Shown here: positions 12,878-59,447 of the stretch, in pieces
Layout: each line of letters opens with the position of its first letter
Position numbering within the stretch: the stretch's first letter is position 1
Origin: a virus
Taxonomy: Duplodnaviria > Heunggongvirae > Uroviricota > Caudoviricetes > Herelleviridae
Virus record (IMG/VR): IMGVR_UViG_2974502414_000001
Direction: 5' to 3' (one strand)
Length of the DNA: 64,000 bases
Notes under the pieces: generated by a model
What the model saw: only the letters and a program-made list of their open reading frames with translations
Told to the model about the DNA's origin: nothing
Databases searched by the model: none
Program-made: the position numbers and the translations under genes

Positions 12878-12949
12878 TGGACTCTGCAGGATTCGAACCT
12901 ACAGTCAAACCGTTATGAGCGGTTGGCTTTACCTTTAAGCTAAGAGTCC
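12878..12949 (-). tRNA. trnM: tRNA-Met (anticodon CAT)
   Basis: manual cloverleaf: acceptor GGACTCT/AGAGTCC, D-stem GCTT/AAGC, anticodon stem AACCG/CGGTT with loop CTCATAA, T-arm GTAGG-TTCGAAT-CCTGC. Confidence 0.85.
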
Positions 12950-36096: not shown

Positions 36097-36168
36097 CACA
36101 CCCTCTTTGATTTGCACAAAGACTAAGGGTTTTGGAGACCCTTGTACTACTAATTATACTAAGGGTGT
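36097..36168 (-). tRNA. trnW: tRNA-Trp (anticodon CCA) with non-canonical T-loop TGCAAAT
   Basis: manual fold: acceptor ACACCCT/AGGGTGT, D-stem GTAT/GTAC, anticodon stem AGGGT/ACCCT, loop CTCCAAA, T-stem CTTTG/CAAAG. Confidence 0.7.
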
Positions 36169-36174
36169 TTATTA

Positions 36175-36247
36175 TGGTTTCTATTGGATTTGAACCAATG
36201 ACACCTAGAGCTTCAATCTAGTGCTCTACCATCTGAGCTAAGAAACC
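36175..36247 (-). tRNA. trnF: tRNA-Phe (anticodon GAA)
   Basis: GGTTTCTTAGCTCAGATGGTAGAGCACTAGATTGAAGCTCTAGGTGTCATTGGTTCAAATCCAATAGAAACC. Confidence 0.9.
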
Positions 36248-36253
36248 TTAAAA

Positions 36254-36327
36254 CGACCCATACGAGACTCGAACTCGTACTCTCTGCCGTGACAGGGCAG
36301 TGTGTTAACCAGTTACACCAATGAGCC
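36254..36327 (-). tRNA. trnD: tRNA-Asp (anticodon GTC)
   Basis: acceptor GGCTCAT/ATGGGTC (two GU pairs), D-stem GTGT/ACAC, anticodon stem CTGCC/GGCAG with loop CTGTCAC, T-arm ACGAG-TTCGAGT-CTCGT. Confidence 0.85.
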
Positions 36328-53869: not shown

Positions 53870-54706
53870 ATGGCAATAACATCAGTTGATTCATATTTAT
53901 TATCAGAAATAAAGCCTAGACTTAACACTGTGCTAGAGAATTGTTATATTATAGATGAAGTTTTAAAAGACTTTGATTATCAAACTAGAGAGAGCTTTAA
54001 AGAAGCTTTCTGTGGTAAGAATGCACAACATGAAGTAACGGTAGGATTTAACTTCCCAAAATTTAAAAATAACTATGAAGCTCATTACTTGATACAATTA
54101 GGTCAAGGACAAGAGACAAAAAACTCTTTAGGGAGTATTCAGTCATCTTACTTTGAGGCAACAGGAGATACTTTAGTCGAATCTTCTACAGCAATAAGAG
54201 AAGATGATAAGTTAGTTTTTACTGTTTCTAAACCAATAGGAGAGTTAATAAAGGTAGAAGATATAGAGTTTGCTAAATACGATAATCTTCAGGTTGAAGG
54301 TAATAAGGTATCATTTAAGTATCAAACAAATGAAGATTATGAGAACTACAATGCTAACATTATATTTACCGAAAAGAAAAATGATTCTAAAGGTTTAGTA
54401 AAAGGATTCACAGTTGAAGAACAAGTAACAGTTGTAGGTCTTTCATTTAATGTAGACGTTGCAAGATGTTTGGATGCTGTACTGAAAATGATTTTAATAT
54501 CTATGAGAGATAGTATAGAAGAGCAACAAACATTCCAATTACAGAATTTGTCTTTTGGTGATATTGCACCAATAATAGAAGATGGTGACTCAATGATTTT
54601 TGGTAGACCAACAATTATTAAGTACACAAGTTCTCTAGATTTGGATTATACTATTACACAAGATATTAATAAACTAACTTTTAAAGAAAGAAAGGATTGG
54701 AAGTAG
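53870..54706 (+). CDS. structural protein (278 aa)
   Basis: ORF track. Confidence 0.55.
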   Translation: MAITSVDSYLLSEIKPRLNTVLENCYIIDEVLKDFDYQTRESFKEAFCGKNAQHEVTVGFNFPKFKNNYEAHYLIQLGQGQETKNSLGSIQSSYFEATGDTLVESSTAIREDDKLVFTVSKPIGELIKVEDIEFAKYDNLQVEGNKVSFKYQTNEDYENYNANIIFTEKKNDSKGLVKGFTVEEQVTVVGLSFNVDVARCLDAVLKMILISMRDSIEEQQTFQLQNLSFGDIAPIIEDGDSMIFGRPTIIKYTSSLDLDYTITQDINKLTFKERKDWK

Positions 54707-54707
54707 G

Positions 54708-54923
54708 ATGGATAGAAAAAAGACACCTGAAAATAACACTCCTAAATTTAATGGTTATGTTCATATAGATACATTCCTTGATACTGCAAAAACCCTTTTT
54801 AATATGAGGGATTCACAAGTAGCAGGATTTAAAGCTTATATGGAAGGTAGTCATTATTTGTTTAGTGAGCAAGAATTCTTACCATCATTAGAGAAGTATC
54901 TAGGTAGGAAATTAGATATATAA
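54708..54923 (+). CDS. hypothetical protein (71 aa)
   Basis: ORF track. Confidence 0.5.
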   Translation: MDRKKTPENNTPKFNGYVHIDTFLDTAKTLFNMRDSQVAGFKAYMEGSHYLFSEQEFLPSLEKYLGRKLDI

Positions 54924-54949
54924 TAACATTCAGATAAGGAGAATTAAAT

Positions 54950-56713
54950 ATGGCAGTAGAACCATTCCCAAGAAGACCTATTACCCGTCCTCATGCATCT
55001 ATTGAAGTAGATACTTCAGGTATCGGTGGCTCAGCAGGTTCAAGTGAAAAAGTATTTTGCTTAATCGGTCAGGCTGAAGGCGGAGAACCAAATACAGTTT
55101 ATGAATTACGTAACTATGCACAAGCTAAACGTTTATTCCGTTCAGGAGAATTACTTGATGCAATAGAATTAGCATGGGGTTCTAACCCTAACTATACAGC
55201 AGGACGTATTTTAGCTATGCGTATAGAAGATGCTAAACCTGCTTCAGCGGAAATTGGCGGATTAAAAATAACATCTAAAATCTACGGTAATGTTGCTAAC
55301 AACATTCAAGTAGGATTAGAAAAGAATACACTAAGTGATTCATTACGTTTAAGAGTAATATTCCAAGATGACCGTTTCAATGAGGTTTATGATAATATCG
55401 GTAATATCTTCACAATCAAGTACAAAGGAGAAGAAGCTAACGCAACTTTCTCTGTAGAACATGATGAAGAAACTCAAAAAGCAAGTCGTTTAGTATTAAA
55501 AGTTGGAGACCAAGAAGTTAAGTCATATGATTTAACTGGTGGAGCTTATGACTACACTAATGCTATTATTACAGACATTAATCAATTACCTGATTTCGAA
55601 GCTAAATTATCACCTTTCGGAGATAAGAACTTAGAATCTAGCAAATTAGATAAAATTGAAAATGCAAATATAAAAGATAAAGCTGTATATGTAAAAGCAG
55701 TTTTTGGTGACTTAGAAAAACAAACAGCTTACAATGGTATCGTATCTTTCGAGCAACTTAATGCAGAAGGAGAAGTACCAAGTAATGTAGAGGTTGAAGC
55801 AGGAGAAGAATCAGCTACAGTAACTGCTACTTCACCTATTAAAACTATTGAACCGTTTGAGTTAACTAAGTTAAAAGGCGGTACTAATGGTGAACCACCT
55901 GCTACATGGGCAGACAAGTTAGATAAATTTGCACATGAAGGCGGATACTACATTGTTCCATTATCATCTAAACAATCAGTTCATGCAGAGGTAGCTTCTT
56001 TTGTTAAAGAACGTTCTGATGCAGGAGAACCAATGAGAGCTATTGTTGGTGGAGGATTCAATGAATCTAAAGAACAATTGTTCGTTAGACAAGCATCATT
56101 ATCTAATCCACGAGTATCATTAGTAGCTAACTCAGGTACTTTTGTTATGGATGATGGACGTAAAAACCACGTACCTGCTTACATGGTAGCCGTAGCTCTA
56201 GGTGGTCTTGCAAGTGGTTTAGAAATCGGTGAATCAATCACATTCAAACCACTACGTGTAAGTTCATTAGACCAAATCTATGAGTCAATAGACTTAGATG
56301 AATTAAATGAAAATGGTATTATTAGTATAGAGTTTGTTCGTAACCGTACTAATACATTCTTCAGAATCGTTGACGATGTAACTACATTCAACGATAAATC
56401 AGACCCAGTTAAGGCTGAAATGGCTGTTGGGGAAGCTAATGACTTCTTAGTAAGTGAGCTTAAAGTTCAACTTGAAGACCGGTTTATTGGTACTCGTACT
56501 ATTAATACAAGTGCTTCAATCATTAAAGACTTTATCCAATCTTACTTGGGTCGTAAGAAACGTGATAATGAAATTCAAGACTTCCCTGCTGAAGACGTAC
56601 AAGTTATTGTTGAAGGTAACGAAGCAAGAATTTCAATGACAGTTTACCCAATCAGAATCTTCAAGAAAATCTCTGTTAGCTTGGTTTACAAGCAACAGAC
56701 ATTACAAGCCTAG
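54950..56713 (+). CDS. tail sheath protein
   Basis: 587 aa; recognised Kayvirus sheath sequence. Confidence 0.9.
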   Translation: MAVEPFPRRPITRPHASIEVDTSGIGGSAGSSEKVFCLIGQAEGGEPNTVYELRNYAQAKRLFRSGELLDAIELAWGSNPNYTAGRILAMRIEDAKPASAEIGGLKITSKIYGNVANNIQVGLEKNTLSDSLRLRVIFQDDRFNEVYDNIGNIFTIKYKGEEANATFSVEHDEETQKASRLVLKVGDQEVKSYDLTGGAYDYTNAIITDINQLPDFEAKLSPFGDKNLESSKLDKIENANIKDKAVYVKAVFGDLEKQTAYNGIVSFEQLNAEGEVPSNVEVEAGEESATVTATSPIKTIEPFELTKLKGGTNGEPPATWADKLDKFAHEGGYYIVPLSSKQSVHAEVASFVKERSDAGEPMRAIVGGGFNESKEQLFVRQASLSNPRVSLVANSGTFVMDDGRKNHVPAYMVAVALGGLASGLEIGESITFKPLRVSSLDQIYESIDLDELNENGIISIEFVRNRTNTFFRIVDDVTTFNDKSDPVKAEMAVGEANDFLVSELKVQLEDRFIGTRTINTSASIIKDFIQSYLGRKKRDNEIQDFPAEDVQVIVEGNEARISMTVYPIRIFKKISVSLVYKQQTLQA

Positions 56714-56785
56714 TCTAGGTGACGGAGTACCTGGATTAGGTACTCCTATTAATATAATTTGAATACTTTAGGAGAGTGAATACAG

Positions 56786-57142
56786 ATGGCATCAGAAGCT
56801 AAACAAACCGTCCATACTGGTAATACCGTCCTACTTATGATTAAAGGTAAACCGGTAGGAAGAGCACAATCAGCATCAGGTCAACGTGAATACGGTACAA
56901 CTGGTGTATACGAAATCGGTTCTATCATGCCTCAAGAACACGTATACTTACGTTATGAAGGTACAATTACAGTAGAACGTTTACGTATGAAAAAAGAAAA
57001 CTTTGCAGATTTAGGATATGCTTCACTTGGTGAAGAAATTCTTAAGAAAGACATCATTGATATTTTAGTAGTAGATAACTTAACAAAACAAGTTATTATT
57101 TCATATCATGGTTGTAGTGCTAATAACTACAACGAGACATAA
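56786..57142 (+). CDS. tail tube protein
   Basis: 118 aa; immediately after sheath; recognised sequence. Confidence 0.8.
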   Translation: MASEAKQTVHTGNTVLLMIKGKPVGRAQSASGQREYGTTGVYEIGSIMPQEHVYLRYEGTITVERLRMKKENFADLGYASLGEEILKKDIIDILVVDNLTKQVIISYHGCSANNYNET

Positions 57143-57186
57143 CTTTTTTCTGCTGTGTCTCTGTACAGTGATGTATAACAAAAAAA

Positions 57187-57609
57187 CCCTTCTAATTCAT
57201 GGGAACCCTTAACAGATAATGCTGAAGGCAATCATGAGCCAAGCCTAGTAAAGTACTAGGAAGGTGCAACGACTAGAGAAAAGATAGTTTACTGTTATAG
57301 GCAGTAAATGAAAACTGAGTATCGTACATCTAAGTAGATGGAAATGGAGGGATTCCTAAAGTAACGTTTAGGAATGTGATATAGTCTAGTCTATATGGAA
57401 ACATATAGAAGGTAAGAAGTAACGACTCTTATCGTAATAATAACAGGCAGACCAATGAAATCGTAACTGAAGAAATTGAGTAGAAGAATGCTCCTTTAAC
57501 TAGAAATAGTTATAGCAAATCCCTTTAATTCATGGGAACCCTTAACAGATAATGCTGAAGGCAATCATGAGCCAAGCCTAGTAAAGTACTAGGAAGGTGC
57601 AACGACTAG
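57187..57609 (+). repeat. tandem pair of about 334-bp ORF-free modules; 90-bp near-identical cores at 57187-57276 and 57521-57609 (1 difference), each with hairpin CCTAGTA-aag-TACTAGG
   Basis: read directly; tails diverged but alignable, with compensatory hairpin GGATTCCTAAA/TTTAGGAATG vs ACACCTT/AAGGTGA. Confidence 0.75.
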
Positions 57610-57784
57610 TCAGAATGACGTACATCTAAGCAGATGGAAATAGGGGACACCTTCAATATTAAGGTGAAGATATAGTCTGAACTATATAGAAATATATAGA
57701 AGGTTCAAGAGTAGCGTTTTGAATCGTAACAAATTTGTTTCTTATTTAACAGCTAGTGATAAAGCCCGTACCTAAAGGGTTTAA

Positions 57785-57814
57785 AGACCTAACAATAAAA
57801 GTTAGGTCTTTTTT
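57785..57814 (+). terminator. intrinsic terminator AGACCTAAC-aataaaa-GTTAGGTCT plus T6 closing the repeat region
   Basis: read directly. Confidence 0.8.
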
Positions 57815-57815
57815 A

Positions 57816-57844
57816 TTGACATATAACTAACGATATGGTAACAT
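57816..57844 (+). promoter_or_regulatory. promoter TTGACA-17-TGgTAACAT for endonuclease gene
   Basis: TTGACA 57816-57821, TAACAT 57839-57844. Confidence 0.45.
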
Positions 57845-57873
57845 TAAAATATAATATTAAAGAGGTGTTAAGA

Positions 57874-59277
57874 ATGGATAAAAAAATAATAGGATTAAAT
57901 ACAAAAACATTAGAAGAGAAGGTTTTTACTACTATAAAAGAAGCAGAAAAAGAAATTGAATTAAGAGGTACCGTTAAAAGATGTTTAAATAATGAAATTA
58001 AGTCTACTAAAGGATGGTTATTTAGGTATGAAAATGAAGATTTTCCTGAGAAGGCAAGAACAATAACAGACAAAAGAATTAAGGTTGTTGTTTTAAGTAA
58101 AGAACAGGAACAAATAAAGTTACCTCTTGAGATGGCTAAAAATTTATATGGAATACCTAAACCTATGATTATTGAAGCTATTCAATATAAAAGGAAAATT
58201 AATGGCTACTCTGTTAGAAGAGCTACAAAAGAAGAGCAAAAGATTACATTATCTAACATTAGTTATATAGACTATATAAAAACAGTTAATAACCCAAACA
58301 ATATTAAAATTATTAAAAATAAGGGTTCTTTTGGTGAACAGTTAGTTAAGACAATATTAGACTATAATAATATAGAATATAAAAGGGAATATTCTTTTAA
58401 GAATGAATTAGGGACAATACAAAGAATGGATTTTTTAGCAGTAGTAGATAATAAAAAATACTGTATTGAATATATGGGTGAGCAACATTATGTAGAGAAA
58501 GGTAATAAGTGGGGCTCGTTAGAAAAGAGACAATTTCTAGATTCTATAAAGAAAAAATACTGTTACGAAAATGGGATATACTATATTGATATCAGTTATA
58601 AAAACAGTGATTTAGAGAGTGTATTCAATGTTATTAATAAACACATACCAGGTATTAAAAAACCAAATAAATCTATTATTGATATTGGTGTGACAATAAA
58701 TATAGAAGAAATGTTAGAATACTATAAGGAGCATACTAAAAAAGAAACAGCTTATAAATATGGAGTAAAGGAACATAATATTGATAACTTATTAGTAAAT
58801 TTAAACTATGAAAGCAAAAGAAAACCTAAAGATATAATACAAGTATATAAGAGAGATGAAAAAATATTTGAGGGCACTTATAATGAAATTAAGGATGAAT
58901 TTAATTTTACTATGAGTAATGTTTTGAAATGTTTAAATGGAGAACTAGATAAAACATCACAACATTACTTTAAATATAAAGATTCAGAAAAAGATAGAGT
59001 TAGACAACTAAAGACTAAAGAAAGACATAATAAAAGAGGAACAGTAAGAGGAAGTAGTAACAAGGATGTCGTTCTCAAGGACATATATTCAGGAGAGGAA
59101 ACTGTATATTCTTCTATTAAGGAGTGTCACGAAATAACAGGTCTAAACAAAGACAAATTATACAAGTTATTTAATCCAAATAAAAGTAAACAAATTATAG
59201 ACAAATATATAGGTAAAAGCTATGGCGGTGAATACCCTATAACTGTAGAAGAGGCTCTAAATATAATTAACCCTTGA
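57874..59277 (+). CDS. free-standing homing-endonuclease-like protein: NUMOD-like DNA-binding repeats plus PD-(D/E)XK (Vsr/EDxHD-like) nuclease core (start moved to MDKKIIGL)
   Basis: 467 aa; repeats IKSTKGWLFRYENED and IKECHEITGLNKDKLYKLF; core MDFLAVVDNKKYCIEYMGEQHY. Confidence 0.55.
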   Translation: MDKKIIGLNTKTLEEKVFTTIKEAEKEIELRGTVKRCLNNEIKSTKGWLFRYENEDFPEKARTITDKRIKVVVLSKEQEQIKLPLEMAKNLYGIPKPMIIEAIQYKRKINGYSVRRATKEEQKITLSNISYIDYIKTVNNPNNIKIIKNKGSFGEQLVKTILDYNNIEYKREYSFKNELGTIQRMDFLAVVDNKKYCIEYMGEQHYVEKGNKWGSLEKRQFLDSIKKKYCYENGIYYIDISYKNSDLESVFNVINKHIPGIKKPNKSIIDIGVTINIEEMLEYYKEHTKKETAYKYGVKEHNIDNLLVNLNYESKRKPKDIIQVYKRDEKIFEGTYNEIKDEFNFTMSNVLKCLNGELDKTSQHYFKYKDSEKDRVRQLKTKERHNKRGTVRGSSNKDVVLKDIYSGEETVYSSIKECHEITGLNKDKLYKLFNPNKSKQIIDKYIGKSYGGEYPITVEEALNIINP

Positions 59278-59300
59278 CCAGTATCAAGGGTTATGTTATT
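59271..59300 (+). terminator. hairpin CCCTTGA-ccagta-TCAAGGG then T-rich tract
   Basis: read directly; stop codon lies in stem. Confidence 0.55.
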
Positions 59301-59447
59301 ATAATAAATAAGAAGGGATTATATTGACAAACAAAAGAAAAACAATAGGTAAAATAAGTAACTCAAGAGCAACATGGAATATTAATCCGGTAACTAAAGT
59401 TAAAAAAGATAAAACAAAATATTCTAGAAAAAATAAACATAAAGGTC

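What the first reader, a model, noticed from the sequence alone, without database searches (positions are those of the whole stretch)
57150..57815. Tandem pair of diverged ~334-bp structured, ORF-free modules between tail tube gene and a homing endonuclease
After the tail tube stop there are about 660 bp with no ORF over about 15 codons. They form two head-to-tail units with a period of about 334 bp.

Each unit starts with a near-identical 90-bp core (57187-57276 vs 57521-57609, one difference). The core contains a perfect hairpin CCTAGTA-aag-TACTAGG.

The unit tails have diverged but still align. Where unit 1 has hairpin GGATTCCTAAA-gtaacg-TTTAGGAATG, unit 2 has a different-sequence hairpin ACACCTT-caatatt-AAGGTGA at the same relative position. 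Both share CGTACATCTAAG(T/C)AGATGGAAAT. That is compensatory change preserving structure.

GC is clearly above the ~30% background. The region ends in a strong terminator (57785-57814).

This looks like two paralogous structured RNAs carried on the abundant late sheath/tube transcript. It is not coding, not CRISPR, not a simple microsatellite.
Basis: seen in the sequence. Interest (0 to 1): 0.7.

Follow-up and report, generated by a model that had tools for sequence, protein, structure and literature searches.

The report
Two self-splicing introns in tail-tube gene
The two repeated "modules" are two already-described group I self-splicing introns that split the end of the phage tail-tube gene into three exons, so the finding is ordinary, apart from one oddity: the first intron appears to end in A instead of the near-universal G.

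Summary
The repeat is real, but it is not a new RNA class. Window 57141-57445 and 57482-57737 are two group I introns (Rfam RF00028, 78 and 92 bits against a gathering score of 50). They interrupt the tail-tube gene tmpA.

Joining exons 56786-57140, 57446-57481 and 57738-57775 gives 429 nt. The product is 142 aa and 100% identical to the uninterrupted phage K protein. The apparent tail-tube stop is created by the first intron.

In 17 related tail-tube introns, 47 of 69 pairs show compensatory changes.

The same sequence is already annotated this way in GenBank: Fi200W as a 3-piece CDS, PM28 as two Intron_gpI features. It is also described for phage 812, A3R, 676Z, Fi200W and P4W (PMC6445280). 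Twort orf142 is the classic homologue.

The downstream nuclease is a free-standing gene. It travels with the introns in a segment of about 2.3 kb of foreign ancestry.

One residual oddity remains. Frame, Trp-codon restoration and P10 all place the 3' end of intron 1 at an A rather than the canonical terminal G, in every copy examined. This has no experimental test.

The parts
56786..57140 (+). tmpA (tail tube protein) exon 1, 355 nt; ends ...GAG ACA T, the first base of the Trp119 codon
   Evidence: ORF list. Alignment to phage K tmpA. Fi200W and 812 annotate a 3-piece CDS over 56786-57775.
57141..57445 (+). Group I intron 1 (305 nt, Trp119 site, phase 1), Twort orf142-I3-like with a long P7.1 insertion; its terminal nucleotide is A57445, not G
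   Evidence: Rfam RF00028 at 78.4 bits over 57131-57408. P1 is 57134-57140 with 57155-57161, with a U57140-G57155 wobble. P7 is 57271-57275 with 57382-57386. P10 is 57149-57153 with 57447-57451. Boundaries follow from frame and K identity.
57446..57481 (+). tmpA exon 2, 36 nt (GG CAG ... GAG T); residues W119(part)-E130 plus the first base of F131
   Evidence: Spliced product equals K TmpA. The four codon differences from K in this exon are all synonymous.
57482..57737 (+). Group I intron 2 (256 nt, Phe131 site, phase 1), Twort orf142-I2-like; ends in the canonical G57737
   Evidence: Rfam RF00028 at 92.1 bits over 57472-57699. P1 is 57478-57481 with 57490-57493 (U-G wobble). P10 is 57484-57488 with 57739-57743. 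The same site is occupied in CIFT_MRSA21, SapYZU04, CF5 and BE04.
57738..57775 (+). tmpA exon 3, 38 nt including the TAA stop
   Evidence: Six codons differ from K, all synonymously, including TCT/AGT for Ser.
57193..57276 (+). 84-nt block (P3-P7 catalytic core) identical to 57526-57609 in intron 2
   Evidence: The core of intron 1 carries five intron-2-type bases that orthologous W119 introns in PSU6, EW13 and JS1 lack, which indicates a gene-conversion patch.
57783..57818 (+). Intrinsic terminator of the tsp-tmpA late transcript
   Evidence: annotated in PM28 and 812.
57816..57844 (+). Promoter-like site (TTGACA-17-TG-TAACAT) for the nuclease gene
   Evidence: a promoter is annotated here in MH844528.
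57874..59277 (+). Free-standing putative homing nuclease (467 aa; 'Ioh' or 'intron-encoded nuclease' in GenBank). It lies outside both introns and downstream of the tmpA stop and terminator
   Evidence: Pfam I-HmuI NUMOD-like domain, PHROG 7140. Homologues sit directly downstream of the tube gene in 9 of 11 intron-bearing architectures and in none of the intron-less K.
57085..59363 (.). Segment of foreign ancestry relative to phage K: dense substitutions begin at 57085 and end at 59363; flanks are more than 99.4% identical to K
   Evidence: mismatch positions are 5 in 54200-57084, 8 in 57085-57138, 6 in 59327-59363, and 2 in the following 1.3 kb.

Best explanation
The 660 bp are two group I (subgroup IA2, Twort orf142-type) self-splicing introns in the 3' end of the tail-tube gene tmpA.

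**How it works**
1. The late tsp-tmpA transcript is made as a precursor.
2. Each intron folds into the P1-P10 ribozyme.
3. An exogenous guanosine bound at the P7 G-C pair attacks after the exon U held in the P1 U-G wobble (U57140 for intron 1, U57481 for intron 2).
4. The freed exon then attacks the 3' splice site, which P10 aligns.
5. The ligated mRNA (355 + 36 + 38 nt) encodes the normal 142-aa tube protein.

**Why the two units look alike**
The near-identical 84-93 nt is the conserved catalytic core. It has been further homogenised by gene conversion between the two introns. The diverged 'tails' are the peripheral helices P7.1, P7.2, P8, P9 and P9.1.

**Mobility**
The introns have no ORF. 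The adjacent free-standing NUMOD-type nuclease gene probably mobilises the whole cassette into intron-less phages, with co-conversion of flanking exon sequence.

**Shown versus inferred**
- Shown here: family membership by covariance model, covariation, and exact ORF restoration.
- Inferred: actual splicing of these two copies, and nuclease-driven homing. Splicing has been shown experimentally only for the Twort homologues.
For: - Rfam RF00028 full-length matches at 78.4 and 92.1 bits against a gathering score of 50.
- Spliced ORF is 429 nt and the protein is 100% identical to K TmpA.
- 18 codons differ from K and none changes the amino acid, including all 10 differing codons in exons 2 and 3.
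- Alignment of 17 tail-tube introns from 8 phages: RNAalifold recovers P1-P9.1, with an invariant U-G at the 5' splice site in 17/17. With P7 and P10 added, 96.2% of cells are paired against 34-45% when partners are slid, 47/69 pairs change on both sides, and 0/500 shuffles reach the observed values.
- Identical DNA is annotated as a joined CDS (Fi200W, A3R, 812) or as Intron_gpI x2 (PM28).
- Twort orf142 is the tail tube gene with three IA2 introns.
- Mobility: a 2.28-kb divergent tract; 23 records carry introns and nuclease 100% identical; a nuclease homologue lies downstream in 9 of 11 intron-bearing architectures.
Against: - Intron 1 lacks the canonical terminal G (A57445), a defining group I feature, so its second splicing step is unexplained.
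- No RNA or protein data exist for an intron-bearing strain. The phi812 cryo-EM structures come from the intron-less K1/420 derivative.
- PMC6445280 lists the spliced 812 gene as 426 nt, not 429, so its authors annotated a different junction.
- The nuclease's catalytic domain matches no Pfam, NCBIfam or PDB family.
- SapYZU04 and Remus keep tail-tube introns without the nuclease.
Confidence: 0.96

Rival explanations
1. Two paralogous stand-alone structured non-coding RNAs, processed from the late transcript downstream of a complete 118-aa tail-tube gene.
For: The region has no long ORF and is highly structured. Many GenBank records annotate only the 118-aa ORF.
Against: - Tube proteins in the intron-less relatives examined are 142 aa.
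- The missing 24 residues are encoded exactly by the 36- and 38-nt pieces flanking the modules, under purely synonymous divergence.
- The modules match the group I covariance model end to end, including P1 and P10 pairing with those exons.
Confidence: 0.02
2. Intron 2 is an active ribozyme, but intron 1 is crippled or non-canonical because it ends in A. On this reading its removal needs a helper, is inefficient, or uses a cryptic site, so intron 1 would limit or modulate tube-protein output.
For: - Terminal A in all six W119-site copies against G in 12 introns at other sites.
- The P7 G-binding pair is unchanged, so there is no compensating change of specificity.
- From my own knowledge of Tetrahymena mutagenesis, changing the terminal G to A blocks exon ligation in vitro.
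Against: - These phages are viable, high-titre therapeutic phages that need hundreds of tube subunits per virion.
- The A is conserved down to 79% intron identity, and P10 shows a compensatory change in CF5. Both argue for selection on a working 3' splice site.
Confidence: 0.15
3. A tandem duplication or repair scar left by homing-endonuclease cleavage, with no RNA-level function.
For: The adjacent nuclease gene; introns and nuclease are both absent from K.
Against: - The two units sit at different codons (119 and 131) with different P1 and P10 guide sequences matched to their own exons.
- Each has separate orthologues in other phages, occurring singly or in other combinations.
- Outside the core they are only 31-68% identical.
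Confidence: 0.01

Closest known systems
Group I introns I1-I3 of Staphylococcus phage Twort orf142 (tail tube gene), subgroup IA2 (Landthaler & Shub 1999; I2 is the crystallised Twort ribozyme)
   Same: - Same host gene, same 3'-terminal region, same ORF-less IA2 architecture with P7.1 and P7.2.
- Multiple introns separated by tiny exons, and a nuclease gene directly downstream.
- Window intron 1 resembles Twort I3 (shared long P7.1 insertion). Window intron 2 resembles Twort I2.
   Different: - Different insertion sites: Twort uses Y115, I129 and S137; the window uses W119 and F131.
- Window intron 1 ends in A, whereas all three Twort introns end in G.
The identical locus in Kayvirus 812 / A3R / 676Z / Fi200W / P4W / PM28 (GenBank annotations; Botka et al. 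2019, PMC6445280; Lobocka et al. 2012 as cited there)
   Same: 100% identical over 2160 bp in 23 records. It is annotated as a 3-exon tmpA or as Intron_gpI x2 plus a nuclease.
   Different: Nothing; the window is this element. Published annotation gives a 426-nt spliced gene, against the 429 nt derived here.
Collaborative homing of ORF-less introns by a neighbouring free-standing homing endonuclease (cyanophage psbA intron with F-CphI; Zeng, Bonocora & Shub 2009; Bonocora & Shub 2009; cited from my own knowledge)
   Same: ORF-less introns next to a free-standing nuclease gene with its own promoter. They are co-inherited, co-lost, and flanked by co-conversion-like tracts.
   Different: Cleavage specificity is untested. 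The nuclease has NUMOD modules but an unassigned catalytic core. Two introns rather than one would be carried.

Membership tests
Group I intron (Rfam RF00028) | Full-length match to the covariance model above the curated gathering score | tested here: met
   78.4 bits (57131-57408) and 92.1 bits (57472-57699) against a gathering score of 50, model positions 1-253 of 253.
Group I intron (Rfam RF00028) | 5' splice site after a U that forms a U-G wobble in P1 with the internal guide sequence | tested here: met
   U57140-G57155 and U57481-G57490. The U-G pair is invariant in 17 of 17 related introns, while the other P1 pairs covary with each exon.
Group I intron (Rfam RF00028) | Conserved core helices P3-P9 supported by covariation, including the P7 pseudoknot with the G-C guanosine-binding pair | tested here: met
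   96.2% of cells paired; 47 of 69 pairs change on both sides; slid controls give 34-45%. P7 (GACUA/UAGUC) is invariant, so it is consistent with the structure but uninformative.
Group I intron (Rfam RF00028) | Terminal guanosine (omega-G) immediately before the 3' splice site | tested here: not met
   - Intron 2 meets this (G57737).
- Intron 1 does not. Only U57140|G57446 restores TGG and the reading frame, which makes the last intron base A57445.
- This holds in all six W119-site copies.
Group I intron (Rfam RF00028) | P10 pairing between the internal guide and the start of the 3' exon | tested here: met
   Intron 1: UCUGC with GCAGA. Intron 2: AAGAA with UUCUU. All 5 pairs covary across the family. 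CF5 has UUUGC with GCAAA.
Group I intron (Rfam RF00028) | Precise removal restores an uninterrupted conserved ORF | tested here: met
   429 nt, 142 aa, 100% identical to K TmpA.
Group I intron (Rfam RF00028) | Guanosine-dependent self-splicing activity | not testable with these tools
   Reported for Twort orf142 introns in the literature. No data exist for these copies.
Subgroup IA2 (phage-type) | Extra helices P7.1 and P7.2 between P7 and the 3' strand of P3 | tested here: met
   - The P7.2 hairpin (alignment columns 223-236) has 4 of 5 pairs changing on both sides.
- A P7.1 segment is present in both introns and is long in intron 1 and Twort I3.
- Twort I2 and I3 are classed as IA2.
Free-standing homing endonuclease with ORF-less intron (collaborative homing) | Nuclease gene outside the intron, adjacent to the intron-bearing gene, with its own expression signals | tested here: met
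   The ORF at 57874-59277 lies after the tmpA stop and terminator and has a promoter-like site and an RBS.
Free-standing homing endonuclease with ORF-less intron (collaborative homing) | Nuclease cuts the intron-less allele at or near the insertion site, and the intron-bearing allele is immune | not testable with these tools
   Indirect evidence only: the 2.28-kb divergent tract, joint loss in 812a, and 23 identical records.
Stand-alone phage non-coding RNA | Lies outside coding sequence and is not required to reconstitute a gene | tested here: not met
   The modules are flanked by exons 2 and 3 of tmpA.

The most novel reading that the evidence does not exclude
Intron 1 (the Trp119-site lineage found in 812/Fi200W-type Kayvirus, SapYZU04, CF5, PSU6, EW13 and JS1) is a natural, functional group I intron whose terminal nucleotide is adenosine, although it keeps the standard G-C guanosine-binding pair in P7.

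If so, it performs exon ligation without omega-G. That would be an undescribed exception to one of the most conserved rules of group I splicing, in an intron closely related to the crystallised Twort ribozyme.
Probability: 0.35. Interest if true: 0.55.

Novelty: already known. Interest (0 to 1): 0.15.

Why it matters
As a discovery it does not matter much: the element is annotated in GenBank and described in the Kayvirus and Twort literature. The analysis has three practical uses.

- **Annotation.** Many phage records annotate a truncated 118-140 aa "tail tube", "capsid" or "hypothetical" protein here because the introns are ignored.
- **An intron hot spot.** The last 33 codons of this gene carry at least nine insertion sites across Staphylococcus Herelleviridae, with intron-to-intron gene conversion. 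That makes it a good natural system for studying intron mobility.
- **The terminal A of intron 1.** If splicing is confirmed, it would be a natural test case for how the second step of group I splicing can proceed without the terminal G.

Tried and rejected
- **Tandem Repeats Finder** does not report the ~334-bp period; only the seed-based repeat finder does.
- **IMG/VR pattern scans** for more W119-site introns failed. A specific P1/guide pattern returned two unrelated high-GC contigs.
- **Rfam scans of many loci at once** missed the W119 introns of PSU6, EW13 and JS1. A short-stretch rescan gave 78.4 bits, so the misses were speed-filter artefacts, not absences.
- **PDB tube-protein entries** (8q01 and others) looked like protein-level proof of correct splicing, but the virus used was intron-less K1/420.
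- **Botka et al.'s 426-nt junction** could not be recovered. Three candidate 141-aa products and the frameshift product were looked up, and none is deposited.
- **Canonical-G alternatives for the intron 1 3' site** were rejected. G57446 gives a frameshift and a stop after 6 codons. G57424 gives a 7-aa insertion, replaces the conserved Trp and cuts the covarying P9.1 helix.
- **Literature searches** for a natural non-G terminus, or for transcriptome data on an intron-bearing Kayvirus, found nothing relevant.
- **The nuclease's catalytic core** matched nothing in Pfam, NCBIfam or the PDB by sequence. I ran no further search on it.

Full report
**Where the window comes from.** Over 56700-57900 and 57141-59300 the window is 100% identical to Staphylococcus Kayvirus genomes of the 812 / A3R / 676Z / Fi200W / P4W / PM28 group.

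**Observation.** The repeat is real.
- 57184-57276 and 57517-57609 are 90/93 identical with spacing 333. An exact 84-nt block is shared, 57193-57276 = 57526-57609.
- Two further blocks downstream align at 86-89%.
- GC (35.7%) is only modestly above the window mean of 30.1%. It falls in the top 9.5% of same-size windows and equals that of the upstream exon.
- Small ORFs of 25-34 codons exist on both strands.

**What it is.** Rfam scores both units as complete group I introns: RF00028, 78.4 bits at 57131-57408 and 92.1 bits at 57472-57699, against a gathering score of 50.
- The 118-aa 'tail tube' ORF ends in a TAA made of the exon's last T plus the intron's first AA.
- Phage K has an uninterrupted 142-aa gene.
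- Aligning K to the window and joining 56786-57140, 57446-57481 and 57738-57775 gives 429 nt. The protein is 100% identical to K TmpA.
- Both introns are in phase 1, at Trp119 and Phe131.
- Between the window and K, codons 1-99 are identical. Of codons 100-142, 18 differ and every difference is synonymous, including a TCT/AGT serine switch. Exons 2 and 3 are therefore translated in that frame.

**Structure.** I delimited 17 Twort-type tail-tube introns from eight phages (window, CIFT_MRSA21, SapYZU04, CF5, Twort, PSU6, EW13) and aligned them with 8-nt exon flanks.
- RNAalifold independently recovers P1, P2, P3, P4, P5, P6/P6a, P7.2, P8, P9 and P9.1. Compensatory changes occur in 42 of 59 pairs, and the U-G at the 5' splice site is invariant.
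- With the P7 pseudoknot and P10 added, 96.2% of cells are paired against 34-45% when partners are slid. 47 of 69 pairs change on both sides, and no shuffle out of 500 reaches the observed values.
CCTAGTA/TACTAGG is P6a. CATCT-aagy-AGATG is P7.2. The two 'different-sequence hairpins at the same position' are P8.
- The extra ~45 nt in unit 1 is a long P7.1, shared with Twort I3.

**Already known.**
- Fi200W, A3R and 812 (MH844528) annotate tmpA as a 3-piece joined CDS. PM28 annotates two Intron_gpI features.
- Botka et al. [quoted passage not shown] The 812a-derived mutants lost the introns and the nuclease.
- Twort orf142, the classic three-intron phage gene with exon skipping, is the tail-tube gene. 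I located its introns at Y115, I129 and S137, with the reported 23-nt exon. Rfam scores them 64-101 bits.

**Why the cores are nearly identical.** P3-P7 is the conserved catalytic core, and there is also evidence of gene conversion.
- Outside the core, the window's intron 1 is 98-100% identical to its orthologues in PSU6 and EW13.
- Inside the core it differs from them at five positions (a compensatory P4/P5 variant). At those positions it matches the neighbouring intron 2.
- SapYZU04's two introns share a private P6a-loop variant.

**Mobility context.**
- The nuclease ORF (57874-59277) lies after the tmpA stop and terminator and has its own promoter-like site. It is therefore free-standing, despite the 'intron ORF' label.
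- It carries I-HmuI-type NUMOD modules and belongs to PHROG 7140. Its catalytic core has no Pfam, NCBIfam or PDB sequence match. Relatives give weak DUF2726 hits, and one is annotated as a VSR endonuclease.
- Relative to K, substitutions are dense only between 57085 and 59363. That marks a 2.28-kb imported cassette with co-conversion-like edges.
- 23 records carry it at 100% identity.
- A nuclease homologue lies directly downstream of the tube gene in 9 of 11 intron-bearing architectures: window, CG, KMSP1, BE04, Twort, PSU6, CF5, CIFT_MRSA21, EW13/JS1. It is absent from SapYZU04 and Remus, and from intron-less K.
- This pattern fits homing of ORF-less introns by a neighbouring nuclease. Cleavage is untested.

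**Unexplained detail.** The intron 1 3' junction can only be A57445|G57446.
- That junction alone rebuilds the conserved TGG and the frame.
- The A occupies the alignment column that holds G in all 12 introns at other sites.
- P10 has the family's usual register. CF5 shows a compensatory P10 change: exon GGCAAA with guide UUUGCU.
- The A is present in all six backgrounds examined, down to 79% intron identity.
- The guanosine-binding pair in P7 is unchanged.
- Twort has no intron at this site, and the phi812 structures come from an intron-less derivative. No experiment therefore bears on it.
- Botka et al. list 426 nt for the spliced gene, which suggests they placed this junction differently. 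None of my guesses at their product is deposited.

**Verdict.** This is a correct observation of a known element. The interpretation as novel ncRNAs is not supported, and the interpretation as structured RNA is. Overall novelty is 'already known'. The terminal-A question is the only part worth an experiment.

Noticed in passing
window 57445/57446 (also L005 3536, L010 2303, L011 2305, L012 2305, L137 ~1551): The Trp119-site intron ends in A rather than the canonical terminal G in every copy seen. The P7 G-binding pair is unchanged. All 12 related introns at other sites end in G.
   Followed up: partly
tmpA codons 110-137 across window, L004-L013, L136, L137: An intron hot spot with at least nine insertion sites in the last 33 codons of the tube gene: C110, N113, Y115, W119, V125, I129, E130/F131, L134 and S137. 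Genomes carry 0-4 introns each, of at least two structural types (Twort-type, and Remus/KMSP1-type scoring about 50 bits in Rfam).
   Followed up: partly
window 57193-57276 vs 57526-57609; L005 3233-3828: Gene conversion between the two introns of one genome. Intron 1's core carries intron-2-type bases that are absent from orthologues in genomes lacking intron 2. SapYZU04's two introns share a private P6a-loop variant.
   Followed up: yes
window 57140 + 57738: Both introns are in phase 1, so Twort-like exon skipping (exon 1 joined to exon 3) would give an in-frame 130-aa tube protein lacking residues 119-130. Whether this product occurs is unknown.
   Followed up: no
L011 (PSU6) ~2340-2728: A ~390-nt insertion at E130|F131 that Rfam did not report. 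It appears to follow an exon G rather than U (GAG|AAUUUU ... AAAUCG|UUUUCG). The boundaries are my inference only.
   Followed up: no
window 57874-59277 vs L010, L011, L013: The nuclease homologues are domain-shuffled. The window protein's N-terminal NUMOD region (residues 3-134) aligns downstream of the conserved core (residues ~151-256) in Twort, PSU6 and CF5. The core contains a ...DFLAVVD...CIEYMGEQH... motif that looks PD-(D/E)xK/Vsr-like, but it has no significant family match.
   Followed up: partly
GenBank records of the same locus: Many records annotate only exon 1, as a 'hypothetical', 'capsid' or 'truncated capsid' protein. One 90%-identity protein cluster holds 'tail tube' proteins of 118-140 aa that reflect unspliced annotation. 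PM28 also annotates promoters inside both intron cores, which a simple scan does not support.
   Followed up: partly
window 12878-12949 and 36097-36327, minus strand: Four tRNA matches in the Rfam scan of the whole window. Published Kayvirus records describe three tRNAs plus a pseudo-tRNA.
   Followed up: no
Rfam scans: Scans of several loci at once silently missed 78-bit group I introns that a short-stretch scan finds. Negative results from the large scans should not be read as absence.
   Followed up: yes
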